Positions 24,304-32,611 of a stretch of DNA of 64,000 bases are shown in pieces. Below the pieces are notes generated by a model. The model worked only from the letters and a program-made list of their open reading frames with translations, had not been told where the DNA came from and ran no database searches. Positions within the stretch are counted from its first letter, which is position 1; every line of letters begins with the position of its first letter. The position numbers and the translations under genes were made by a program. Source of the stretch: Nitrososphaeria archaeon (lineage in GTDB: Archaea; Thermoproteota; Nitrososphaeria; Geothermarchaeales; JDFR-13); contig JALWXN010000004.1 in assembly GCA_027078545.1 (NCBI GenBank), positions 892,133 through 956,132 of the forward strand, in the 5' to 3' direction.

Positions 24304-25210
24304 GCCTCCTATAGACCGTATAGGCAAGGTAGCCATCCTGTACAGCGGTGCCCACACTCTTGAATATCGTCAGCTCATCACTAGACTCCCTACCAGCTAC
24401 ACGCCCAAGCAGGAGCTCCGAGAAGAGATGTACATCACCCCTGGATACCAGGCCCTCCCTAATAGCGAGTCCAACCTCACCCACTTCATAGAGGTCGGGA
24501 CTATCTATGAACACCTTGTCAGCCGACGCCACTAGCCGTGGATCCAGCTCGGCACTATCCCTACCCATATAGCCCATACTAGCTATGTGCCTACCCCTAG
24601 GCGAGGAGTCTATAACAGGCTCACTACTCGTAGTAGCTGTGATGACCACCTCAGCTCTCTCCACGACCTCGCCTGGTGAGGACACTACATATGCCTCTAC
24701 ACCCCTCCTACCCAGCTCCTCAGCATACTTCACGGCCTTCCCAACCCTCCTGTTATGGAGATATACACGCCTAACCCCTGGGAACCACTCTAGATGCATC
24801 TCTAGGCTCGCCCTCCCTATACGGCCCACCCCAATAAGCCCAATAGTCTCCGGCTCCCCGTAGAGCTCGATCGTCGATACTAGGGCCATACCAGCTGTAC
24901 GTAGAACGGTTATAGAGACACCGTCGACGAGGCATAGCGGCTCCATAGACCCCAGGTCGTATACAAAGACATATGCATTGAAGGGCCTACCGTCGAAGGG
25001 ATAGTCCACAACCTTCAGCGTATAGACCCCATACTCCCTGATGTGGCATGGCATAGCCCCTAGGAAGCGTGACCCACCCTCTATCAGGAGCTCAGACCTG
25101 GGGGGCTGGTCGACACCCGGGTCTAGGAAGCCTCGGAACGCCCTGTACACAGACTCTACGACATCCCTGAGGGGTAGAGACTCAACCTCCTCCCTACCTA
25201 TCACCCTCAT
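24293..25210 (-). CDS. ornithine cyclodeaminase / mu-crystallin family protein (archaeal alanine dehydrogenase-like)
   Basis: NAD-binding GLIGVGRIGRASLE, family-typical TIFKSVGTAVQD. Confidence 0.75.
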   Translation of the reverse strand: MRVIGREEVESLPLRDVVESVYRAFRGFLDPGVDQPPRSELLIEGGSRFLGAMPCHIREYGVYTLKVVDYPFDGRPFNAYVFVYDLGSMEPLCLVDGVSITVLRTAGMALVSTIELYGEPETIGLIGVGRIGRASLEMHLEWFPGVRRVYLHNRRVGKAVKYAEELGRRGVEAYVVSSPGEVVERAEVVITATTSSEPVIDSSPRGRHIASMGYMGRDSAELDPRLVASADKVFIDSPDLYEVGEVGLAIREGLVSRGDVHLFSELLLGRVAGRESSDELTIFKSVGTAVQDGYLAYTVYRRLSP

Positions 25211-26142
25211 GGCTCCTCTACACCCACATACTCCATGATTAGAGCCCTATACCTATCGGGATCCTCTACATAGCCCATATACATGCCCTGACCACCTCCA
25301 CCCCGGCCTCCACACTCACCCCTTATCCTAGCCTTAAGACCCTCTATATCCACACCAGAGCTGGCTAGGAAGACCCTATGCCTCTCGCCATCCCAGCTGA
25401 GTACCGAGAGGATATCTACTCCACGCTCATCCATAACGTGTCTAGCCCGGCTAGTAACCCTCTTCATATCGAGGTGGGGAAGCTCTATAGCTAGGAGGCT
25501 ATACCTACCCCTCAGCAACGGCCACCTCGAGAGGGCAGTGTCGACCACCATCCTCGAAGCCTTCTCCAACCTATCCTCAAGCTCCTTAAGACCCTCTACA
25601 CGGCTATAGAGATCCTCTAGGGACGAGCCTAGTAGGCGTGACATGCTATACATGTTGGAGGCGCTCTCAAGGGCATACTCGACGGCCCTCTCCCCAGTAT
25701 AGAACTCCAGCTCATAGAGCCCGGAGCGGACCCTCCTAAGCAGCCTAGGTACCACTAGCCGTACTTCTGACGCCCTCTCCACATGAGGGTTTATACATGC
25801 CGAGGCGTCGTAGTCACCTATCCTGACCACCCTTATAAACTCCTTATCACCCAGCCTCTCCTCATATGCCCTGAGGCCGGGATACCTTGCCCTAGCCTCC
25901 TCAAGGCTCCCGAAGACCTCCACGTGGAACGGCAGGTCATCAGTGATAGCCCTGTTAGCCATCCTCGCAGCCTCCACAACAGTCTCCCAATCAATATCGC
26001 CGTCATACCTGAGGAACGCCTTGTCCACACCTGTATCTTCATGGACTACCCTCACCACCTTGAGCCCGGGCACTAGCTTGTATAGACTACCCACGAGGAG
26101 ATGCTCCCCCGAGTGTCTAACCCTTATATCCCTGTTCTCCAC
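25207..26142 (-). CDS. alaX: alanyl-tRNA editing protein AlaX-like (AlaRS editing domain homolog)
   Basis: Zinc-binding HSGEHLL (HxxxH) and CINPHV (CxxxH); C-terminal glycine-rich CGGRGGGGQG resembling the AlaRS C-terminal motif. Confidence 0.65.
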   Translation of the reverse strand: MENRDIRVRHSGEHLLVGSLYKLVPGLKVVRVVHEDTGVDKAFLRYDGDIDWETVVEAARMANRAITDDLPFHVEVFGSLEEARARYPGLRAYEERLGDKEFIRVVRIGDYDASACINPHVERASEVRLVVPRLLRRVRSGLYELEFYTGERAVEYALESASNMYSMSRLLGSSLEDLYSRVEGLKELEDRLEKASRMVVDTALSRWPLLRGRYSLLAIELPHLDMKRVTSRARHVMDERGVDILSVLSWDGERHRVFLASSGVDIEGLKARIRGECGGRGGGGQGMYMGYVEDPDRYRALIMEYVGVEEP

Positions 26143-26216
26143 CTCGAGACACCCCGTGGGGACAAGCCATTATAAACACCCCAAGCCGGAATAATTATTT
26201 TAACACGCTCCGAGGG

Positions 26217-28910
26217 GTGGTCATTATTGAATACAACCTCAGGATCGGCCTCGAGGTACACATCCCACTCTCAACAGTAGAGACCAAGCTGTTCTGCACC
26301 TGCCCAAACCCGTTCAGACATCCTCCTGAGAGGCCTAACCAGTACGTATGCCCCACATGCCTAGGCCTACCCGGAGCCCTACCCAGCCCCAATATGGAGG
26401 CTATTAGGAAGGCGATAATCCTAGCGAAGGCCCTGAAGATGGAGATACCCAGGAAGATACAGTTCTATAGGAAGCATTATCTATACCCAGACCTACCCAA
26501 GGGATACCAGATAACCCAGTACATGGCTGGTGGAGACCTCCCAATAGGGATTAGGGGAGGGATGCTCTTCAGGGAGAGGTATATAGGGATAAGGAGGATA
26601 CAGCTGGAGGAGGATCCAGCCAAGCTGGAGCACCCAGGGGGGCTAGGCGAGTCGAGCAGGACGCTTATCGACTATAACAGGTCTGGCGCCCCACTGATAG
26701 AGCTTGTTACTGAGCCCGAGCTATACAGCCCTAGGGAGGCTAGGATATTCATAGAGGAGCTGACCAGACTCCTGGTCACCACGGGCATAATAGCTGAGGA
26801 TACACAGCCAAAGGTGGATGCAAACATATCTATCGAGGGTGGGCCTAGGGTAGAGATCAAGAACATATCCTCCCCAAGGGATGTGGAGAAGGCCCTGAGC
26901 TACGAGGCAATGAGGATGGCTAGATACATGGAGCAGGGTGTAAGGATCAGACGGGAGACGAGGCACTGGGACGATAGGAGGAGGGTCACGATACCCCTTA
27001 GGGAGAAGGAGTATGAGGAGGAGTATAGATACATACCCGATCCCAACCTCCCACCGATAGACATATCCGACATGATAGCCGAGGTCGAGGAGCCGGAGAC
27101 CCCCCTGAAGATCCTGGAGAGACTCATCAGGGATGGGGTCGATGTATACCCGGCCAAGATCATAGCCTCGGACAAGAGGCTCCTAAGAATCTACGAGGAG
27201 GCCTCGGAGGGTCTTGGTAAAAAGGCTAGGATGGAGCTGGCGAAGACACTTGTAAACGAGGCTAAACACATGCTCAACACAGGGAAGACTGTGGAGGAGC
27301 TCATAGAGACTATGAAGCCCCTATACCAGCTGGTGGATAAGGGCATCATCACCCCGGCAGAGGCGAGGAAGAAGCTCCTAGGGAGGAGGGGGCTGAGACA
27401 GGCCGACACAGGGGAGATACTCAAGACGCTTGAGGAAGTCCTCAGAGAGGTGGATCCAAGTAGGAGGAGGAGCCTAGACTACGTGGTCGGCACCGTGCTC
27501 AGGAGGCTCAGGGAGAGGGGGCTCGACGCAGATCCAAGGATTATTGCTGAGTATGCCCGTGGAAAGATCGAGACTGCTAGGAAGATAGAGGTTAGGAGGG
27601 CTAGGGCTGGAGGGGAGAGGGTGTATAAGGGCGCCGTGGAGGCCCCTAGGCCGCTGGATCCCAGCCAGCTACCCAGCCTGGTTGGCTCAGAGGCGGTCAT
27701 AGGCGGCTGGATAGAGACTCGGGCATACGTGGGGGACAAACTATTCCTAAGGCTCAGGCATTGGAGGGGCACTATACAGGTGGTGGCCCATGGGGATATC
27801 CGGGCCTACCAATACCTGTCGAGCCTCCCGAGAGAGGCATACATAGTCGTTAGGGGAAGGGTAGTCAGGGACTCCAGAGCCCCAGGCGGGCTAGAGATCC
27901 ACGCATCAGAGGTAATCCCCATAGGTACATCCACCGACCCACCAATGACGCTGATGGACCTGGCCAGGTCAAGTCTCCCAACCAGGGTCAGGCATAGATA
28001 CCTAGACATTAGGAGGCGTAGGGTAAGGGCTGTCCTATACATAAGGGCGAGGCTACTAGAGATCGTTAGGAGCCTCCTAACCAGGAAGGGCTTCGTGGAG
28101 ATACAGACACCCACGATAATAGCCTCGGCCACGGAGGGAGGGGCGGAGCTATTCCCACTGATATACTATGGTAGGGAGGCCTTCCTAGCCCAGAGCCCCC
28201 AGCTATATAAACAGATGGCTATAAACGCCTTCGAGAAGGTCTTCGAGATCGATAGCTACTACCGCGCCCAGAAGTTCGACACCCCACGCCACCTAGCGGA
28301 GTTCTGGTCCCTAGACGTCGAGGTCGCCCACCATGGGCTGGATGATCTGATCAGCCTAGCCAGGGAGATACTCCTAGAGATACATGGGACGCTCCCCTCA
28401 AAGGCGGGTGACGAGCTCATGCTCCTAGGGGTTGAACTTGAGCCAGGGCCTAGCTTCGCGGAGATGAGTTATGACGAGGCTGTGGAGATATCGGGGACGA
28501 GGTATGGCGAGGACATCTCTGCAGAGGCGTTGAGAGAGGTGTATAGGGAGGCGGGCGCTAGATACCTGTTCATAACCCACTGGCCAGAGGAGACCAGGGC
28601 CTTCTACTACCGCTCGATAGACGGTATAACCAAGAGCTTCGACCTCGTAGGACCCTTCACAGGGACGCCTATAGAGCTCGCCAGTGGCGGGGAGAGGATA
28701 AACAGCTATGACGAGCTCGTCAGGAGCATAAGGAGGAGGGGTCTGAGGGAGGAATCGTATGGATGGTACCTAGAGATGTTTAGGTATGGAATGCCCCCAC
28801 ACGGAGGCTTCGGGCTGGGGATAGACAGGCTACTAGCATCCCTCCTAGGCCTCGACTCAGTGCTGGAGGCCACTCTAGTGCCCAGGACGCCCAAGTACTA
28901 CATCCCATAG
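26217..28910 (+). CDS. gatB-aspS: apparent fusion protein: aspartyl/glutamyl-tRNA amidotransferase subunit B (N-terminal ~470 aa) joined to a complete class II aspartyl-tRNA synthetase (C-terminal ~420 aa)
   Basis: GatB part: GLEVHIPL, KLFCTCPNPF, CPTCLGLPGALPSPN, RKHYLYPDLPKGYQITQ, IDYNRSGAPLIELVTEP, EYRYIPDPNLPP, YqeY-like tail. AspRS part: OB-fold GGWIETRAYVGDKLFLRLRHWRGTIQVV, motif 1 GFVEIQTPTI, QSPQLYKQ, motif 2-like YYRAQKFDTPRHLAEFWSLDVE, motif 3 GGFGLGIDRLLASLLG. One frame, no stop between; GTG start with TATA-like boxes at 26170-26176 and 26190-26204. Confidence 0.8.
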   Translation: MVIIEYNLRIGLEVHIPLSTVETKLFCTCPNPFRHPPERPNQYVCPTCLGLPGALPSPNMEAIRKAIILAKALKMEIPRKIQFYRKHYLYPDLPKGYQITQYMAGGDLPIGIRGGMLFRERYIGIRRIQLEEDPAKLEHPGGLGESSRTLIDYNRSGAPLIELVTEPELYSPREARIFIEELTRLLVTTGIIAEDTQPKVDANISIEGGPRVEIKNISSPRDVEKALSYEAMRMARYMEQGVRIRRETRHWDDRRRVTIPLREKEYEEEYRYIPDPNLPPIDISDMIAEVEEPETPLKILERLIRDGVDVYPAKIIASDKRLLRIYEEASEGLGKKARMELAKTLVNEAKHMLNTGKTVEELIETMKPLYQLVDKGIITPAEARKKLLGRRGLRQADTGEILKTLEEVLREVDPSRRRSLDYVVGTVLRRLRERGLDADPRIIAEYARGKIETARKIEVRRARAGGERVYKGAVEAPRPLDPSQLPSLVGSEAVIGGWIETRAYVGDKLFLRLRHWRGTIQVVAHGDIRAYQYLSSLPREAYIVVRGRVVRDSRAPGGLEIHASEVIPIGTSTDPPMTLMDLARSSLPTRVRHRYLDIRRRRVRAVLYIRARLLEIVRSLLTRKGFVEIQTPTIIASATEGGAELFPLIYYGREAFLAQSPQLYKQMAINAFEKVFEIDSYYRAQKFDTPRHLAEFWSLDVEVAHHGLDDLISLAREILLEIHGTLPSKAGDELMLLGVELEPGPSFAEMSYDEAVEISGTRYGEDISAEALREVYREAGARYLFITHWPEETRAFYYRSIDGITKSFDLVGPFTGTPIELASGGERINSYDELVRSIRRRGLREESYGWYLEMFRYGMPPHGGFGLGIDRLLASLLGLDSVLEATLVPRTPKYYIP

Positions 28911-28919
28911 GTGGTGCAT

Positions 28920-30338
28920 ATGCTGAAGCTACTAGACCTCTTCGAGGCGGACGACCCGATAAGCCTGAGCGAGAAGTACTATGAAAGGTTAAAGAGATGG
29001 GAGGAGAGGATAAACATCTTCATAACACTGAGGGAGTGGGGGGAGATCCAGCTTGTCCACGAGCCTGGTAAGCCCCTCTCAGGAGGCCTGATACCCGTCA
29101 AGGACAACATATCAACAAGGGGGGTGAGAACCACCTGTGGAAGCAGGATACTCGAGAACTACATACCCCCCTATGACGCCTATGCCGTGGAGAGGCTGGG
29201 GGAGATAGGCCTAAAAGTGGTTGGGAAGACCAATATGGACGAGTTCGGGATGGGGAGCACCGGGGAGAACAGCGGGTATGGACCGACACGTAATCCATGG
29301 AACACCAGCCACGTCCCCGGGGGAAGCAGCTCAGGGAGCGCAGCAGCTGTAGCGGTGGCTGGCGGGACTTCCCTCGGGAGCGATACTGGTGGTAGTGTCA
29401 GGCTACCAGCTGCATACTGCTACGTACTGGGTTTGAAGCCGACATACGGCCTGGTGAGCCGCTACGGACTAGTATCCTACGCCGATAGCCTGGAGCAGAT
29501 CGGGATACTCGCTAGATACCCGGAGGACATGGCCTACATACTATACCACATATCCAAGCTCGATAAGAGGGACATGACCATGCCACGTACAGAGGATAGG
29601 GAGGAGCTTAGGGAGAGGCTTATAAACCTCTACACCGGAGGAGCCGATGGGCTGGAGGGGTTGAGGATAGGCTACTCCCCAGAACTGATAGAGATGGCCG
29701 ACGATGCCGTGGCGAGGGAGGCATACCGGGCGCTGAATAAGCTGGTCGAGCTGGGGGTAGAGACCCTTGAGATAGACCTGGGATTCATGGAGGCAGGCCT
29801 ACCCACCTACTACGCCATAGCTATGGCCGAGGCATCCTCGAACCTGATGAGGTACGACGGCGTCCTATACGGCTACATGGAGAGGGAGGGGGAATACTGG
29901 AGCAGCGTATATAGGACACGGGCGCTGAGGCTTGGAGAGGAGGTTAAGAGGCGCATCGTCTACGGCTCCCTAATAACCTCTGCAGGCTACAGTGGGAGGT
30001 ACTACATAAAGGCGCTCAGGATAAGGAGGTGGATAAGGGACATGATGATAGATAGGCTTAGGAGGGTCGACGCCGTGCTGATGCCAACATCACCATCCAC
30101 ACCGCCCAGGCTCGGCGAGGTTGAGGGTGTGGACATGTATGCCCTAGACCTATACACAGTGATACCCAACCTAACAGGCCATCCAGCCATAAACATCCCA
30201 GCCGGATTCGTGGGCGGCCTACCAGTGGGGATACAGCTTGTAACCAGTTATTTCAACGACGACCTATTGATAAGGATCGCCAAGGGGCTCGAGGGAGTCC
30301 TATACGACCCTTCAAAGGAGGTGGATACCGATGGATAG
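28920..30338 (+). CDS. gatA: aspartyl/glutamyl-tRNA amidotransferase subunit A (amidase signature family)
   Basis: Amidase signature GGSSSGSAAAVAVAGG...GSDTGGSVRLPAA; alternative GTG start 28911 abuts the stop of the upstream ORF. Confidence 0.85.
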   Translation: MLKLLDLFEADDPISLSEKYYERLKRWEERINIFITLREWGEIQLVHEPGKPLSGGLIPVKDNISTRGVRTTCGSRILENYIPPYDAYAVERLGEIGLKVVGKTNMDEFGMGSTGENSGYGPTRNPWNTSHVPGGSSSGSAAAVAVAGGTSLGSDTGGSVRLPAAYCYVLGLKPTYGLVSRYGLVSYADSLEQIGILARYPEDMAYILYHISKLDKRDMTMPRTEDREELRERLINLYTGGADGLEGLRIGYSPELIEMADDAVAREAYRALNKLVELGVETLEIDLGFMEAGLPTYYAIAMAEASSNLMRYDGVLYGYMEREGEYWSSVYRTRALRLGEEVKRRIVYGSLITSAGYSGRYYIKALRIRRWIRDMMIDRLRRVDAVLMPTSPSTPPRLGEVEGVDMYALDLYTVIPNLTGHPAINIPAGFVGGLPVGIQLVTSYFNDDLLIRIAKGLEGVLYDPSKEVDTDG

Positions 30339-30597
30339 GGAGGATGTGGAGAAGGCCTTAAGACTAGCCGGTATAGGGGACGACCCTGAGAAATATATTG
30401 AGCAGCTGGAGAAAGTGGAGAGGCTCTTCAGCCAACTCGACAAGTGGCTCGACGAGGCTCCTGAGAGGCCTCTCTACCATCCCCTCGACATCAATACAGA
30501 GCCAAGGAGGGACGAGCCCAAAACCAGCGACACTAGCACCTGGATAGAGGGGGATGAGGAGGGCTATGTAGAGGCCCCACCCCTAAGACGTAGATAG
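30331..30597 (+). CDS. gatC: aspartyl/glutamyl-tRNA amidotransferase subunit C
   Basis: 88-aa helical protein, start overlaps gatA stop by 8 nt; position and size fit GatC. Confidence 0.6.
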   Translation: MDREDVEKALRLAGIGDDPEKYIEQLEKVERLFSQLDKWLDEAPERPLYHPLDINTEPRRDEPKTSDTSTWIEGDEEGYVEAPPLRRR

Positions 30598-31062
30598 GCT
30601 CCCCAAGAGACTCTCAACATACCCCTCCTTAACACCCTCGGATACGATGTTGAGTATGAGCCTAGTATGGGTCCGGTCGACATACTCGATCCTCTGAACC
30701 TCCTTTATGAAGCTGTCCAGCTCACTCCTGGTGCGGAACCATGCATAGAGGGTTATGTCATACTCACCAGTAATGTCATACACGGCCTGGACATTAGGCA
30801 TCGATGCCAGTCGCTCCTCAACCTCCCTCAGGAAGCCGCCCCTAACCTTCACATCGATCATCACTGGGAAGATGTATCCAAGCTTCTCCAGGTCGATATC
30901 CACGGTATACCTCCTAATAACCCCCATGTCCTCAAGCCTCTTCCTCCTCGCCTCCACAGTTCCCACGGAGACGCCCAGCCTCCTAGAGAGTTCACGGCTA
31001 CTTATACGCCCCTCCCTCAGGAGGATCGAGAGGATCTTGAGGTCCAGCCTATCCAGCTCCAT
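30583..31062 (-). CDS. lrp: Lrp/AsnC family transcriptional regulator
   Basis: HTH LDRLDLKILSILLREGRISSRELSRRLGVSVGTVEARRKRLEDMGVIRRYTV followed by RAM domain; internal ATG 31062 used, the track's 73-aa N-terminal extension rejected. Confidence 0.8.
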   Translation of the reverse strand: MELDRLDLKILSILLREGRISSRELSRRLGVSVGTVEARRKRLEDMGVIRRYTVDIDLEKLGYIFPVMIDVKVRGGFLREVEERLASMPNVQAVYDITGEYDITLYAWFRTRSELDSFIKEVQRIEYVDRTHTRLILNIVSEGVKEGYVESLLGSLSTS

Positions 31063-31064
31063 AT

Positions 31065-31207
31065 GTATCTCTATATGCACCGCCCTACATAAACAAATGT
31101 CCAGTTTAGAGTCGACTAGATGGATGAACATTAAACATGTGTCTAGATCCGTTTTATGACTGACCCGTGAGAAGCTCTTTACATATACATCCATGGGGTG
31201 GTAATCC
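31065..31207. promoter_or_regulatory. divergent lrp / glnA promoter region
   Basis: TATA-like CTTTACATATACA at 31177-31189 (about 20-30 nt upstream of glnA TTG 31208) and minus-strand TTTGTTTATGTAG at 31087-31099 (about 25-35 nt upstream of lrp ATG). Confidence 0.3.
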
Positions 31208-32611
31208 TTGGACGAGGTTGTCGAGAAGGTATTCGAGGATATGGAGCTGAACAAGGTGAGGTGGGTAACACTCACCTTCACAGACCTAAGGGGCTACCAG
31301 AAACAGGTCACGATCAAGAGAAAGCCAGAGAAGGAGTGGCTCGAGAAGCTCTTCAAACGGGGGGTGGGGAAGCTTGACGGGAGCAGTATCGAGGGGTTCC
31401 AAGACATATCGGAGAGCGACCTGATGCTGAGGCCCGACCCCACGACCTACGCGATACTCCCGTGGGCCGGGGACACCGCCAGGCTAATATCCAACATATT
31501 GATCAGGGGTGAGGACTATCCAAAGGACCCCAGGGGAGCCCTAGCCAAGACCGTGGAGAAGATGGGTCCATACATACCATTGATGGGTGCAGAGGTAGAG
31601 TTCTTCATACTCAACGGAATATCCACGGTTGTCAACGACCTGGAATATACATTCCTGACAAGCCTGGAGACGCTCGAGGCACCAGTTACACAGGGATATC
31701 CCTACAGGCCGAAGACCGGGTACTACATGGAGTGGGGCCTCGACACTGTGATAGGCTTTAGGAGGAGGCTGGTAGAGGTGCTGGAGGGCTGGTTCGGGAT
31801 GGAGGTCGAGAGCCACCACCACGAGGTGGCCATAGCTGGGCAGAGCGAGATAAACATCAGGTATGGAGACCCCGTCTCCACGGCGGACAACGTGATGACC
31901 CTGAAATACGTGGCCCGTGTACTGGCTAGGGAGGAGTATGGGGGCATAACACCCCTCTTCATGCCTAAACCCATACCTACCGATAACGGCTCAGGCCTAC
32001 ACATGCATATAAGCCTCGTGAGGGATGGTAGGAACATCTTCTACGACCCAGACGACGAGTATGCACATCTAAGCCAGGAGGCCAGGTACTTCATAGGTGG
32101 GCTGCTCGAGCATGGACGGGCATTGTCAGCACTGGTCTCCCCAACAGTCAACAGCTACCATAGACTAGTCCCAGGCTACGAGGCACCGATATACCTGACA
32201 TGGGGAAGGTCCAACAGGAGCGCGGCTGTCAGGGTACCATTCTACGACCCCGAGAGTAGGAATGCGAAGCTGGAGTATAGACCCCCAGACCCGTCATGCA
32301 ACCCATACATAGCCATGGCAGGGATACTCGCGGCTGGCATGGACGGATTAAAGAAGAAGAGGGATCCAGGGCCACCGGTCGATGAGAACGTTTATAAAAT
32401 GCCTAAGCAGAGGGTTAGGGAGCTGGGTATAAAGACCCTACCAGCCAGCCTACTAGAGGCTCTGGAGGAGCTGGAGAGCGACATGACATTCCTCGAGAAG
32501 TATATCCCGAGGGAGCTCCTAGAGAGCTATATAGAGCTCAAGAGGGAGGAGGCCAAGACACTGGCTAAGTACCCATCCCCCGCCGAGTTCCAGCTATACT
32601 CATCCCTATAG
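31208..32611 (+). CDS. glnA: glutamine synthetase, type I
   Basis: VRWVTLTFTDLRG N-terminal beta-grasp, GAEVEFF, HHHEVAIAGQSEINIRYG, NGSGLHMHISL, SPTVNSYHRL, RVP. Start TTG 31208 or ATG 31241. Confidence 0.85.
   Translation: MDEVVEKVFEDMELNKVRWVTLTFTDLRGYQKQVTIKRKPEKEWLEKLFKRGVGKLDGSSIEGFQDISESDLMLRPDPTTYAILPWAGDTARLISNILIRGEDYPKDPRGALAKTVEKMGPYIPLMGAEVEFFILNGISTVVNDLEYTFLTSLETLEAPVTQGYPYRPKTGYYMEWGLDTVIGFRRRLVEVLEGWFGMEVESHHHEVAIAGQSEINIRYGDPVSTADNVMTLKYVARVLAREEYGGITPLFMPKPIPTDNGSGLHMHISLVRDGRNIFYDPDDEYAHLSQEARYFIGGLLEHGRALSALVSPTVNSYHRLVPGYEAPIYLTWGRSNRSAAVRVPFYDPESRNAKLEYRPPDPSCNPYIAMAGILAAGMDGLKKKRDPGPPVDENVYKMPKQRVRELGIKTLPASLLEALEELESDMTFLEKYIPRELLESYIELKREEAKTLAKYPSPAEFQLYSSL

What the first reader, a model, noticed from the sequence alone, without database searches (positions are those of the whole stretch)
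26217..30597. Single ORF fusing a complete GatB to a complete AspRS, followed by gatA and gatC
The 897-aa ORF has every GatB hallmark in its first ~470 residues and, after a short linker (about 27600-27680), a full class II AspRS (OB-fold anticodon-binding domain, motifs 1-3, QSPQLYKQ) in the same frame with no stop. gatA and gatC follow with overlapping or abutting starts. In organisms using the indirect route, a non-discriminating AspRS and GatCAB cooperate in a transamidosome to make Asn-tRNA(Asn); a covalent GatB-AspRS fusion would hard-wire that complex. The gene order B-A-C is also atypical. I cannot tell from memory whether this fusion is already annotated in related genomes.
Basis: partly seen in the sequence, partly recalled or inferred. 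Interest (0 to 1): 0.8.

Follow-up and report, generated by a model that had tools for sequence, protein, structure and literature searches.

The report
Natural GatB–AspRS fusion enzyme operon
One gene in this archaeal genome fuses the enzyme that loads aspartate onto the asparagine tRNA to a subunit of the enzyme that then converts it to asparagine; the fusion is conserved across a whole archaeal lineage and I found no paper describing it.

Summary
Window 26217-28910 (+) is one uninterrupted 897-aa ORF. Residues 1-~455 are a full GatB (cradle, helical and remodelled tail domains). A ~30-residue charged tether follows, then a full archaeal-type class IIb AspRS. gatA (28920-30338) and gatC (30331-30597) follow in a translationally coupled operon.

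It is not an assembly artefact. Thirty-two protein clusters (36-93% identity) from independent assemblies share the architecture, including Geothermarchaeota, Caldarchaeum and Baldrarchaeia MAGs. Both halves keep their conserved motifs.

The fused AspRS forms its own clade with no standalone members. It keeps the Asp-specific QSPQLYKQ and the L1-loop proline of non-discriminating enzymes.

Other lineages encode the same partnership as separate adjacent genes: aspS-gatC-gatA-gatB, or gatA-gatB-aspS only a stop codon away from fusion. Independent GatB::AspRS (bacterial type), GatA::AspRS and AspRS::GatC fusions also exist.

Best reading: a covalently tethered Asn-transamidosome, (GatB::AspRS)2·GatA2·GatC2.

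Unresolved: whether this is the genome's only AspRS or one dedicated to tRNA(Asn).

No paper in the searchable library describes the fusion, and NCBI labels one member simply "aspartate--tRNA(Asn) ligase". It is a new variant of a known kind, of moderate to high interest.

The parts
26143..26216 (.). 74-nt divergent intergenic region between the AlaX-like gene and the fusion gene, with two AT-rich TATA-like boxes (about 26168-26177 and 26190-26204) in otherwise GC-rich DNA
   Evidence: Read directly from the sequence. No promoter test was done, so the function is inferred.
26217..28910 (+). gatB::aspS fusion ORF, 897 aa, GTG start, TAG stop
   Evidence: The same 897-aa gene call appears in three independent assemblies of a 93%-identical relative. 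The exact protein is in the public collection on a 1,142,610-bp contig.
26241..27077 (+). GatB cradle (catalytic) domain, aa 9-287
   Evidence: Pfam GatB_N 2.3e-81. All 29 columns that are invariant across 70 GatB-containing sequences, about 34 of them standalone GatBs, are retained. pLDDT is mostly above 85.
27099..27449 (+). GatB helical domain, about aa 295-411
   Evidence: NF004012 matches aa 5-403, equal to profile positions 3-411 of 481. AF2 predicts helices at 296-388. Domain limits are taken by analogy with S. aureus GatB (PMC2811023).
27450..27581 (+). GatB tail (YqeY-like) domain, remodelled, about aa 412-455; contains '...LDYVVGTVLRRLRERGLDADP'
   Evidence: Aligns with canonical GatB tails, with a 9-aa deletion upstream and a 3-aa insertion in the basic loop. 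G425 is invariant in 70 sequences. Full-length GatB chains align over about 493 columns. PF02637 is not detected.
27582..27680 (+). Inter-enzyme tether, about aa 456-488, charged and poorly conserved
   Evidence: The family has 51-73 residues between the tail 'DP' and the OB 'GW', against about 39 expected from standalone termini. This is the lowest-confidence stretch of the AF2 model (aa 461-468 below 50). The frame is open and the other frames are closed.
27681..27926 (+). AspRS anticodon-binding OB-fold domain, aa 489-570; 'GGWIE' and L1 loop 'RAPGG'
   Evidence: Pfam tRNA_anti-codon aa 494-569. Alignments to 1wyd, 1n9w and 3nel. Signature table.
27981..28889 (+). AspRS class II catalytic core, aa 589-891: motif 1 (P632), 'QSPQLYKQ', motif 2 'YYRAQKFDTPRHLAEFWSLDVE', 'SGGER', motif 3 'GGFGLGIDR'
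   Evidence: Pfam tRNA-synt_2 1.3e-70. NF003483 390 bits, above the 353 cut-off. Family-invariant columns. TM 0.84-0.85 to S. tokodaii AspRS.
28920..30338 (+). gatA (472 aa from ATG 28920; the ORF is open from GTG 28911), preceded by GGTGGTG
   Evidence: Pfam Amidase 3e-117. TIGR00132 gatA 473.8 bits, just under the 481.1 cut-off. Gene calls in relatives. Sequence.
30331..30597 (+). gatC (88 aa); the start overlaps the gatA stop and is preceded by GGAGGTG
   Evidence: Weak GatC hits alone. hhalign of 7 orthologues against 8 canonical GatCs gives 98.1%, E 7e-14. Sequence.
30583..31104 (-). Lrp/AsnC-family regulator, a conserved neighbour
   Evidence: Pfam and NCBIfam. Synteny is conserved out to Geothermarchaeota loci L010-L012 and L014.
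31208..32611 (+). glnA, type I glutamine synthetase, a conserved neighbour that could supply the amide donor
   Evidence: TIGR00653 485 bits, above the 429 cut-off. Conserved synteny. The functional link is inferred.
25207..26142 (-). AlaX-L-like protein (AlaRS editing plus C-terminal region), divergently transcribed conserved neighbour
   Evidence: Matches archaeal AlaRS profile positions 595-892 of 902 and weakly tRNA_SAD. Found upstream of the fusion in L001-L004, L010, L014, L015 and L093, and upstream of unfused aspS in Nitrososphaera loci.

Best explanation
This is a genuine, evolutionarily fixed gene fusion. One polypeptide carries a complete GatB, the kinase/transamidase subunit of the tRNA-dependent amidotransferase. 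A flexible charged tether of about 30 residues joins it to a complete archaeal-type aspartyl-tRNA synthetase.

With GatA and GatC from the two downstream, translationally coupled genes, it should assemble around the obligate AspRS dimer as (GatB::AspRS)2·GatA2·GatC2. That would be a permanently assembled Asn-transamidosome.

Proposed mechanism (inferred):
1. The AspRS half binds the tRNA(Asn) anticodon and attaches Asp.
2. The 3' end then swings into the tethered GatB site.
3. There Asp is phosphorylated and amidated with ammonia channelled from GatA, giving Asn-tRNA(Asn) without releasing the mischarged intermediate.

Most likely the same AspRS also makes Asp-tRNA(Asp), which the GatB tail rejects. 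That step is inferred and the alternative was not excluded.

The fusion probably arose by loss of the stop codon between adjacent gatB and aspS genes, an arrangement still seen unfused elsewhere. In this clade the operon was later rearranged to B::S-A-C.
For: Shown:
- A single open frame with both domains above curated equivalog cut-offs.
- Conserved columns of both families are retained.
- The Asp-specific QSPQLYKQ and the L1-loop Pro shared with the non-discriminating S. tokodaii and Thermus AspRS2 enzymes.
- A confident per-domain AF2 model that matches full-length GatB and AspRS structures, including chains of the 3kfu transamidosome.
- gatA and gatC immediately downstream with overlapping or SD-preceded starts.
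- 32 fused clusters at 36-93% identity from independent assemblies. Stop-to-stop verification in L001-L015.
- Core-clade monophyly of both halves: GatB 94%, AspRS 100%.
- No standalone member of this AspRS clade in an exhaustive search: 378-450 bits for fused proteins, then 288 bits for the best standalone.
- No closely related standalone GatB among the best hits, so the GatB half is probably the partner of the adjacent GatA and GatC.

Context:
- aspS-gatC-gatA-gatB and gatA-gatB-aspS clusters of separate genes in many archaea.
- A tRNA-Asn(GTT) gene between gatB and aspS in one Micrarchaeia locus.
- Independent fusions of AspRS to GatB (bacterial type), to GatA (P0226) and to GatC (NCBIfam NF009460).
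- The junction carries 12-34 extra unconserved charged residues, consistent with a tether.
Against: - No biochemical or structural data exist for this protein. Complex formation, stoichiometry and channelling are inferred.
- AF2 inter-domain geometry is unreliable (pTM 0.52), so I could not check that the tether spans the required distance.
- The AspRS half is a divergent member: 390 bits against 506-596 for canonical neighbours. It falls below the TIGR00458 cut-off (321.9 against 368.4).
- Motif 2 reads RAQ, not RAE, and the position that is His in the two solved non-discriminating enzymes is Glu.
[quoted passage not shown] That fits a sole non-discriminating AspRS less comfortably. The register was not mapped onto S. 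aureus numbering.
- Whether another aspS or asnS exists in the genome is unknown.
Confidence: 0.75

Rival explanations
1. The architecture and complex are the same, but the fused AspRS is dedicated to tRNA(Asn). It would be the counterpart of the tRNA(Gln)-specific GluRS2 of H. pylori, or of the extra AspRS2 of Thermus and Deinococcus. A second, canonical AspRS elsewhere in the genome would then make Asp-tRNA(Asp), and GatB would no longer need to discriminate between tRNAs.
For: - The fused AspRS clade is strongly diverged from every standalone AspRS (42% identity or less; score gap).
- It has clade-specific changes: motif 2 RAQ, 'GWxE', and AsnRS-like 'VGxK.F', 'EFW' and 'PRTP'.
- In NJ trees it groups with AsnRS and not with the Nitrososphaeria/Bathyarchaeia AspRS group (68% bootstrap).
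- The GatB tail has lost 9 residues near the proposed variable-loop-reading motif, and PF02637 is no longer detectable in the core clade.
- A standalone AspRS is labelled as coming from a Geothermarchaeales MAG (P0409).
Against: - No second aspS was found in the 64-kb window or in the flanks of any related locus.
- Searches seeded with the best candidates returned no protein on the fingerprint contigs of fusion-bearing genomes.
- P0409 has one close relative only and otherwise sits among Desulfurococcales-type enzymes on a 7.6-kb contig, so it may be mis-binned or transferred.
- The assemblies carrying P0409 or P0433 differ from those carrying the fusions that were checked.
- The residue at the 'GWxE' position varies widely among ordinary archaeal AspRS.
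- These tests have low power.
Confidence: 0.22
2. One half is a catalytically dead appendage. Either the GatB part serves only as a tRNA-binding module for AspRS (as the YqeY/GatB-tail domain does for Deinococcus GlnRS), or the AspRS part serves only as an anticodon-reading module for GatCAB.
For: - There is a precedent for aaRS enzymes borrowing GatB-derived tRNA-binding domains (PMC1865053 abstract).
- The AspRS half has an unusual motif 2 (RAQ) and a low family score.
Against: - Every column invariant across 70 GatB-containing sequences is kept.
- All AspRS substrate and ATP motifs are invariant within the family: motif 2 Arg, QSPQLYKQ, GGER and motif 3 GxGxGxxR.
- The whole GatB is retained, not only its tail.
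- gatA and gatC sit next to the fusion with no other gatB nearby.
- No close standalone GatB or AspRS relatives turned up that could supply the missing activity.
Confidence: 0.03
3. Assembly or sequencing artefact: a lost stop codon or an indel has merged two adjacent genes.
For: Adjacent, same-frame gatB and aspS genes separated by a single stop codon do exist in other lineages (Methanofastidiosum 'TAA ATG'). One error could therefore mimic a fusion in a single assembly.
Against: - The same open frame is found in 32 clusters at 36-93% identity from NCBI, ENA, JGI and Logan assemblies.
- The junction carries extra linker residues, not abutting termini.
- The alternative frames are closed.
- The fused AspRS clade has no standalone members.
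Confidence: 0.005

Closest known systems
Asn-transamidosome of Thermus thermophilus (PDB 3kfu: archaeal-type non-discriminating AspRS2 + GatCAB + tRNA(Asn))
   Same: The two enzymes and the chemistry are the same. The fusion's AspRS half matches 1n9w/3kfu AspRS2 (253 bits; TM 0.85) and its GatB half matches 3kfu GatB (243 bits). The Thermus particle is described as stable through the whole catalytic cycle (PMC3367201).
   Different: The Thermus complex is non-covalent and held together by tRNA. Here GatB and AspRS are one polypeptide, which fixes a 1:1 GatB:AspRS ratio. The AspRS belongs to a separate clade and the GatB tail is remodelled.
NCBIfam NF009460 'bifunctional aspartyl-tRNA synthetase / amidotransferase subunit C' (AspRS::GatC)
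   Same: A curated family in which AspRS is covalently fused to a GatCAB subunit, so the same idea of hard-wiring the pathway.
   Different: The partner subunit is different (GatC, at the C terminus of a bacterial-type AspRS). The window protein scores 111 bits against a cut-off of 1379, so it is not a member.
Bacterial-type GatB::AspRS fusions with a GAD domain (P0041, P0044, P0082, P0116, P0120; locus L008)
   Same: The order of the parts is the same (GatB N-terminal, AspRS C-terminal), and the gene ends a gatC-gatA-gatB::aspS operon.
   Different: The AspRS is bacterial type with a GAD insertion, the GatB tail is canonical (PF02637 detected), and the proteins are 1108-1171 aa. They are only 28-31% identical to the window protein overall and serve as outgroup in the trees, so this is an independent fusion. 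They also appear to be undescribed.
GatA::AspRS fusion (P0226, 963 aa)
   Same: An archaeal-type aspartate--tRNA(Asn) ligase fused behind an amidotransferase subunit. Both halves are above their equivalog cut-offs.
   Different: The partner is GatA, not GatB. Its AspRS part branches with canonical AspRS, away from the window's clade.
Unfused archaeal operons aspS-gatC-gatA-gatB (Nitrososphaerales, Bathyarchaeia) and gatA-gatB-aspS (Methanofastidiosum, Micrarchaeia)
   Same: The gene set and presumably the pathway are the same. Methanofastidiosum is one stop codon from a fusion.
   Different: The genes are separate. Their AspRS is canonical (506-596 bits on NF003483), and in Methanofastidiosum it carries the 'GWVH' seen in the two solved non-discriminating enzymes.
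Deinococcus radiodurans GlnRS with a C-terminal YqeY/GatB-tail-like domain (PMC1865053)
   Same: An aminoacyl-tRNA synthetase covalently joined to a GatB-derived module that helps bind tRNA (abstract; PMC2811023).
   Different: Only the tail module is borrowed and there is no amidotransferase activity. That enzyme belongs to the direct pathway.

Membership tests
GatB (Asp-tRNA(Asn)/Glu-tRNA(Gln) amidotransferase subunit B) | Whole-protein score above the curated equivalog cut-off | tested here: met
   NF004012 scores 384 bits against 338. TIGR00133 scores 334.8 against 314.8.
GatB (Asp-tRNA(Asn)/Glu-tRNA(Gln) amidotransferase subunit B) | Cradle domain with the family's invariant residues | tested here: met
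   GatB_N 2.3e-81. All 29 columns invariant across 70 sequences, about 34 of them standalone GatBs, are present. I did not map them onto the catalytic residues of S. aureus GatB.
GatB (Asp-tRNA(Asn)/Glu-tRNA(Gln) amidotransferase subunit B) | C-terminal helical plus YqeY-like tail domain that binds the tRNA core | tested here: inconclusive
   PF02637 is not detected, and the NCBIfam match ends at profile position 411 of 481. However, the tail aligns with canonical tails ('VG..L...ADP', G425 invariant), and full-length GatB structures align over about 493 columns. It carries a 9-aa deletion near the Lys-rich motif region.
GatB (Asp-tRNA(Asn)/Glu-tRNA(Gln) amidotransferase subunit B) | Partner subunits GatA and GatC are present | tested here: met
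   gatA: Amidase 3e-117; TIGR00132 473.8 bits, marginally below the 481.1 cut-off. gatC: hhalign 98.1%. Both lie directly downstream.
Archaeal-type aspartate--tRNA(Asn) ligase (non-discriminating AspRS) | Whole-protein score above the curated equivalog cut-off | tested here: inconclusive
   NF003483 scores 390 bits against 353, so that test is met. TIGR00458 aspS_nondisc scores 321.9 against 368.4, so that one is not. The protein is a divergent member.
Archaeal-type aspartate--tRNA(Asn) ligase (non-discriminating AspRS) | Class IIb architecture: N-terminal OB anticodon-binding domain plus a catalytic core with motifs 1-3 | tested here: met
   Pfam. Alignments to 1wyd, 1n9w and 3nel. TM 0.84-0.85. 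Motif 2 has Gln where other AspRS have Glu (RAQ).
Archaeal-type aspartate--tRNA(Asn) ligase (non-discriminating AspRS) | Aspartate-specific signature QSPQ(L/F)YKQ; AsnRS has QSAQLYLE or QLYAE | tested here: met
   Invariant in all 28 aligned fused proteins. The AsnRS models score lower (238 against 390 bits).
Archaeal-type aspartate--tRNA(Asn) ligase (non-discriminating AspRS) | Anticodon-domain determinants of relaxed tRNA specificity. From my own recollection of T. kodakarensis mutagenesis (W26H and K85P relax specificity): Pro in the L1 loop and His after 'GWV'. | tested here: inconclusive
   The L1-loop Pro is present ('RAPGG', as in S. tokodaii, Thermus AspRS2 and AsnRS; T. kodakarensis has 'KAKLG'). 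The His position is Glu. That position is highly variable among archaeal AspRS found in gatCAB operons: S, V, Q, E, R.
Archaeal-type aspartate--tRNA(Asn) ligase (non-discriminating AspRS) | [quoted passage not shown] | not testable with these tools
   This needs aminoacylation assays. No tRNA genes occur in the window.
Transamidosome (AspRS·tRNA(Asn)·GatCAB particle) | Physical association of AspRS with GatCAB and hand-over of Asp-tRNA(Asn) without release | not testable with these tools
   Covalent linkage of AspRS to GatB is shown by sequence. Binding of GatA and GatC, stoichiometry and channelling are inferred. AF2 pTM of 0.52 gives no reliable inter-domain geometry.
NF009460 bifunctional AspRS/GatC | Score above the curated cut-off; a GatC domain fused to a bacterial-type AspRS | tested here: not met
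   111.5 bits against a cut-off of 1379. GatC is a separate gene here.
Asparaginyl-tRNA synthetase (AsnRS) | Score above the AsnRS equivalog cut-off and an AsnRS amino-acid signature | tested here: not met
   NF003037 scores 238 bits against 414; TIGR00457 scores 229 against 342.6. The Lys of QSPQLYKQ is present. Genuine AsnRS genes from Asgard loci score 484-490 bits.

The most novel reading that the evidence does not exclude
The fused enzyme is not a general AspRS. It would be a tRNA(Asn)-dedicated aspartyl-tRNA synthetase that co-evolved with its tethered GatB, with tRNA selection moving from the GatB tail to the synthetase's anticodon domain. That would explain the deletion near the GatB variable-loop-reading motif.

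Its AspRS clade sits next to the root of AsnRS in the trees. On this reading it would be a living analogue of the intermediate from which asparaginyl-tRNA synthetase evolved: an AspRS already committed to tRNA(Asn), needing only a change of amino-acid specificity.
Probability: 0.15. Interest if true: 0.85.

Novelty: new variant of a known kind. Interest (0 to 1): 0.6.

Why it matters
The indirect route to Asn-tRNA(Asn) depends on never releasing the mischarged Asp-tRNA(Asn). Known organisms manage this with transient or tRNA-glued complexes whose stability varies (PMC3367201). A lineage that has made the partnership covalent matters in four ways.

1. It is natural evidence that substrate hand-over between the two enzymes is under selection. 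The case is stronger because AspRS has been fused independently to GatB (twice), to GatA and to GatC.
2. It offers an intrinsically stable, thermostable particle for structural work on an archaeal transamidosome. I know of no solved archaeal Asn-transamidosome, though I did not check this systematically.
3. It fixes the stoichiometry and so constrains models of how the tRNA 3' end flips between the two sites.
4. This AspRS clade lies near AsnRS in crude trees and its GatB tail is remodelled. It therefore bears on how tRNA discrimination is shared between the two enzymes and on how AsnRS originated.

On the practical side, current annotation names such proteins only 'aspartate--tRNA(Asn) ligase'. 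Pathway reconstructions for these MAGs would therefore wrongly score GatB as missing.

Tried and rejected
1. Artefact hypothesis. Rejected on recurrence in independent assemblies and on closed alternative frames.

2. I first read the full-length matches in Methanofastidiosum, Micrarchaeota and Parvarchaeota as fusions. A stop-to-stop test showed they are adjacent same-frame genes separated by a stop codon, or by a tRNA gene. Their high rank is probably because tblastn can align through a single stop.

3. I considered the Glu at the 'GWxE' position a possible specificity marker. I dropped that because the position is highly variable among ordinary archaeal AspRS.

4. Search for a second AspRS or AsnRS in the same genome.
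- tblastn of the window and all loci found none.
- The contig-length 'fingerprint' trick was validated. Searches seeded with a composition-matched standalone AspRS (P0173) and with a 'Geothermarchaeales' standalone AspRS (P0409) found no protein on fingerprint contigs.
- Assembly accessions did not overlap.
- The result is negative but of low power, so this is unresolved rather than rejected.

5. Organism identification. There is no rRNA or tRNA in the window. Cluster look-ups returned no names.

I therefore could not take transamidosome geometry from the P. aeruginosa structure paper.

7. Literature. Six searches and five papers examined gave no description of a GatB-AspRS fusion. Subscription-only papers are not covered.

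8. The first tree attempt timed out and was redone with vectorised distances. The trees are NJ with Kimura distances and are only indicative at deep nodes.

Full report
**1. Observation**

The ORF table shows one 897-aa ORF at 26217..28910 (+) starting with GTG. A gatA-sized ORF follows (28911/28920..30338), then an 88-aa ORF (30331..30597).

Pfam finds GatB_N (aa 9-287, 2.3e-81), an OB anticodon-binding fold (aa 494-569) and the class II D/K/N catalytic core (aa 589-891, 1.3e-70) in the same polypeptide. NCBIfam equivalog models pass their curated cut-offs for both enzymes: GatB NF004012 at 384 bits against 338, and aspartate--tRNA(Asn) ligase NF003483 at 390 against 353.

The junction is in frame, and both other frames carry several stops.

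**2. Not an artefact**

A homology search with the whole protein returned 32 clusters (at 90% identity) with the same three-domain architecture. They are 36-93% identical, 671-956 aa long, and come from NCBI, ENA, JGI and Logan assemblies. The exact window protein is in the collection on a 1,142,610-bp contig.

Three independent assemblies of a 93%-identical relative, and a 60%-identical relative from another sequencing run, have the same 897/909-aa gene call followed by gatA and gatC. A stop-to-stop test on the DNA confirms a single open frame in L001-L015.

**3. Anatomy of the GatB half**

The NCBIfam match stops at profile position 411 of 481, and PF02637 (GatB_Yqey) is not detected. So I tested whether the tail domain is really there.

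- In an alignment with canonical GatBs, the region aa ~395-455 aligns with their tails ('...LDYVVGTVLRRLRERGLDADP' against '...LNYLVGLVVKR-CGGRADP').
- The core fused clade has a 9-residue deletion just upstream and a 3-residue insertion in the basic loop.
- G425 in this stretch is invariant across 70 GatB-containing sequences. So are 28 other columns of the cradle domain, all retained here.
- An AF2 model (mean pLDDT 85.7; pTM 0.52) predicts helices at 398-411, 419-433 and 440-466.
- Foldseek aligns about 493 columns to full-length GatB chains 3ip4_B and 3al0_B.

According to the S. aureus GatCAB structure paper (PMC2811023), the tail's hydrophobic pocket (VGxxM...GxAxP) fits the tRNA D-loop. 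[quoted passage not shown]

The pocket residues are kept in the fused clade. The deletion lies just upstream of them, about where canonical GatBs carry that motif, though I did not map the register onto S. aureus numbering. GatB is therefore complete but remodelled.

**4. Anatomy of the AspRS half**

The best solved relatives are S. tokodaii AspRS (1wyd, 300 bits) and Thermus AspRS2 (1n9w/3kfu). The latter is the non-discriminating archaeal-type enzyme of the crystallised transamidosome. The model superposes on 1wyd with TM 0.84-0.85.

Within the fused family the following are invariant:
- the motif 2 Arg;
- 'QSPQLYKQ';
- 'SGGER';
- motif 3 'GGFGLGxxR'.

A signature table shows the Asp-specific Lys-containing QSPQLYKQ in every fused member, where AsnRS has QSAQLYLE or QLYAE. 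It also shows the L1-loop Pro ('RAPGG'), where the discriminating T. kodakarensis enzyme has 'KAKLG'.

Clade-specific oddities:
- Motif 2 is 'YRAQ', not 'FRAE'. The two P0028-group sequences (P0028 is the Baldrarchaeia-named one) keep RAE.
- Glu replaces the His of the two solved non-discriminating enzymes after 'GW(I/V)'. That position proved variable among ordinary archaeal AspRS, so I give it little weight.

The half scores 390 bits on NF003483, against 506-596 for canonical neighbours. It is below the TIGR00458 cut-off, so it is a divergent AspRS. The AsnRS models score far lower (238 bits).

**5. The tether**

Across 28 fused proteins there are 51-73 residues (median 58; 56 here) between the GatB tail 'DP' and the AspRS 'GW'. 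Standalone proteins contribute about 16 + 23 = 39. The extra 12-34 residues are unconserved and rich in K, R and E. They coincide with the lowest-confidence stretch of the model (aa 461-468).

**6. Partners and operon**

- gatA is a clear GatA-type amidase: Amidase 3e-117, and TIGR00132 473.8 bits, marginally under the 481.1 cut-off.
- The 88-aa ORF is only a weak GatC hit alone. A profile of seven orthologues matches a profile of eight canonical GatCs with 98.1% probability (E 7e-14, 80 columns).
- The fused ORF ends in TAG. GGTGGTG precedes the gatA ATG at 28920. GGAGGTG precedes the gatC ATG, which overlaps the gatA stop.
- The block [gatB::aspS]-gatA-gatC, then a divergent Lrp/AsnC regulator, then glnA (type I glutamine synthetase, 485 bits against 429) is conserved out to Geothermarchaeota loci at about 50% identity.
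- An AlaX-L-like gene lies upstream of the fusion in most of those loci, and upstream of the unfused aspS in Nitrososphaera loci.

**7. Distribution and origin**

It still returned fused genes in three Ca. Geothermarchaeota MAGs, Ca. Geothermarchaeum rappei JdFR-14, a Ca. Caldarchaeum subterraneum MAG and a 'Thermoprotei' MAG. All have the B::S-A-C order.

A Baldrarchaeia MAG has gatC-gatA-[gatB::aspS]. Another lineage has the fusion gene alone.

Many archaea encode the same set as separate adjacent genes:
- aspS-gatC-gatA-gatB in Nitrososphaerales and Bathyarchaeia;
- gatA-gatB-aspS in Methanofastidiosum, where only 'TAA ATG' separates the two genes;
- gatA-gatB-tRNA(Asn)-aspS in one Micrarchaeia MAG.

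In NJ trees the core fused clade is monophyletic for both halves: GatB 94% and AspRS 100%. That argues for one fusion event followed by co-evolution. P0032's GatB half groups with Asgard GatBs, so it may be a separate event.

An exhaustive HMMER search of 1.84 billion representatives with the AspRS half shows fused proteins at 378-450 bits. The score then drops to 288 bits (42% identity) for the best standalone enzyme. This AspRS clade therefore appears to exist only in fused form.

Independent covalent solutions also exist:
- bacterial-type GatB::AspRS with a GAD domain, at the end of a gatCAB operon;
- GatA::AspRS (P0226, both halves above cut-off);
- the curated AspRS::GatC family NF009460.

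**8. How it most likely works**

*Shown:* one polypeptide with intact GatB and AspRS sequence determinants, adjacent coupled gatA and gatC, and deep conservation.

*Inferred from established knowledge* of class II AspRS (obligate dimers) and of transamidosomes (PMC3367201, PMC2811023, PMC9499178): the particle is (GatB::AspRS)2·GatA2·GatC2. AspRS binds the anticodon of tRNA(Asn) and aspartylates it. The CCA end then flips to the tethered GatB site, where it is phosphorylated and amidated with GatA-derived ammonia. The mischarged intermediate is never released.

The fusion enforces 1:1 stoichiometry and permanent proximity, which may be an advantage at high temperature where aminoacyl esters are labile. 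Adjacent glnA could supply the amide donor (inference).

**9. The open question**

Is this the only AspRS of the cell (non-discriminating, also serving tRNA(Asp)), or an enzyme dedicated to tRNA(Asn)?

- I found no second aspS or asnS in the window or in any flank.
- Two targeted searches, using contig length as a genome fingerprint, found none on fusion-bearing contigs.
- A standalone AspRS labelled Geothermarchaeales (P0409) sits on a short contig. It has one close relative and otherwise groups with Desulfurococcales enzymes. Its assembly differs from those of the fused genes I checked.

By analogy with the unfused operons, I favour the sole non-discriminating enzyme. However, three things keep the dedicated-enzyme reading alive at about 0.2: the clade's divergence, its 68% NJ grouping with AsnRS, and the deletion in the GatB tail.

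**10. Novelty**

The transamidosome is well known, and aaRS-amidotransferase gene clustering and an AspRS::GatC fusion are already recognised in NCBIfam. The GatB::AspRS protein is present in public databases, but where a name is given it is only 'aspartate--tRNA(Asn) ligase'.

Six full-text searches and five papers examined, including two recent reviews of archaeal indirect aminoacylation and the AARS Online paper, gave no description of it. Subscription literature was not searchable.

I classify it as a new variant of a known kind, with interest 0.6. It is a clean, conserved and experimentally attractive natural 'hard-wired' transamidosome. The surprise is moderate, not categorical.

Noticed in passing
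L017:7381-7454 (Micrarchaeia MAG JBMFIM010000008.1): A tRNA-Asn(GTT) gene sits between gatB and aspS, so the locus reads gatA-gatB-tRNA(Asn)-aspS. All macromolecular components of the Asn-tRNA(Asn) pathway are in one cluster.
   Followed up: yes
L031, L044, L046, L055, L057, L063 (Asgard: Promethearchaeota/Hermodarchaeota MAGs), e.g. L044:3160-4407: The class IIb synthetase directly upstream of gatC-gatA-gatB in these Asgard loci is a bona fide AsnRS (NF003037 484-490 bits against a cut-off of 414; 'QLYAE' signature), not an AspRS. An asnS-gatCAB cluster is unexpected, because AsnRS makes the Asn branch of GatCAB redundant.
   Followed up: partly
P0226 (963 aa; also fragment P0305): A GatA::AspRS fusion: GatA scores 566 bits (cut-off 481) and aspartate--tRNA(Asn) ligase 541 bits (cut-off 353). 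Its AspRS part branches away from the window's clade, so it is an independent fusion to a different amidotransferase subunit.
   Followed up: partly
P0041, P0044, P0082, P0116, P0120; L008:5001-8354 (GCA_031553035.1): Bacterial-type GatB::AspRS fusions of 1108-1171 aa, with a GAD domain and a canonical GatB tail, at the end of a gatC-gatA operon. This is a second, independent GatB-AspRS fusion. The organisms were not identified.
   Followed up: partly
L016:7372, L018:5353, L019:7372 (Methanofastidiosum): gatB and aspS are in the same frame and separated only by 'TAA ATG', one stop codon away from a fusion. This looks like the pre-fusion state. I saw no sign of recoding, but the stop context was not analysed further.
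   Followed up: partly
window 25207-26142 (-); also L001-L004, L010, L014, L015, L093, and L061, L067, L081, L088, L089: An AlaX-L-like gene (AlaRS editing plus C-terminal region, 311 aa) is a conserved neighbour of the fusion operon. It also lies about 1 kb upstream of the unfused aspS-gatCAB operon in Nitrososphaera. A trans-editing factor repeatedly linked to the transamidation genes is unexplained.
   Followed up: partly
window 30583-31104 (-) and 31208-32611 (+): An Lrp/AsnC-family regulator and type I glutamine synthetase directly follow gatC. They stay there in relatives down to about 50% identity (L004, L010-L012, L014), which suggests co-regulation of the amide donor supply with tRNA-dependent Asn synthesis. 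The mechanical ORF for the regulator (232 aa, to 31281) is longer than the gene calls in relatives (159-173 aa).
   Followed up: partly
P0220, P0303, P0298, P0175 (hits): Other unusual AspRS architectures turn up among the nearest relatives: AspRS with a C-terminal YbaK-type tRNA_edit domain (P0220, P0303), cytidylyltransferase-AspRS (P0298), and a 914-aa protein with two class II core matches (P0175).
   Followed up: no
L090:4887-6815 and L091:3001-4925: The standalone AspRS labelled Geothermarchaeales (P0409) and its relative P0433 are each followed by two tiny genes (71-79 aa) consisting only of the AsnC/Lrp ligand-binding domain.
   Followed up: no
window 1-64000: ARAGORN finds no tRNA gene and Rfam finds no family at gathering threshold anywhere in the 64-kb window. 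GC content is 47-57%. The proteins are very Arg-rich, with R/(R+K) about 0.72 in the five proteins sampled.
   Followed up: no
P0169 (421 aa standalone): The closest standalone relative of the fused AspRS half has a hybrid signature: 'QSAQLYKQ' (AsnRS-like Ala with AspRS-like Lys), plus 'FRAEKSRTRKHLTEFW' and a 'PRTP' C-terminus. It branches with AsnRS in the NJ tree, so it may be a transitional AspRS/AsnRS form.
   Followed up: no
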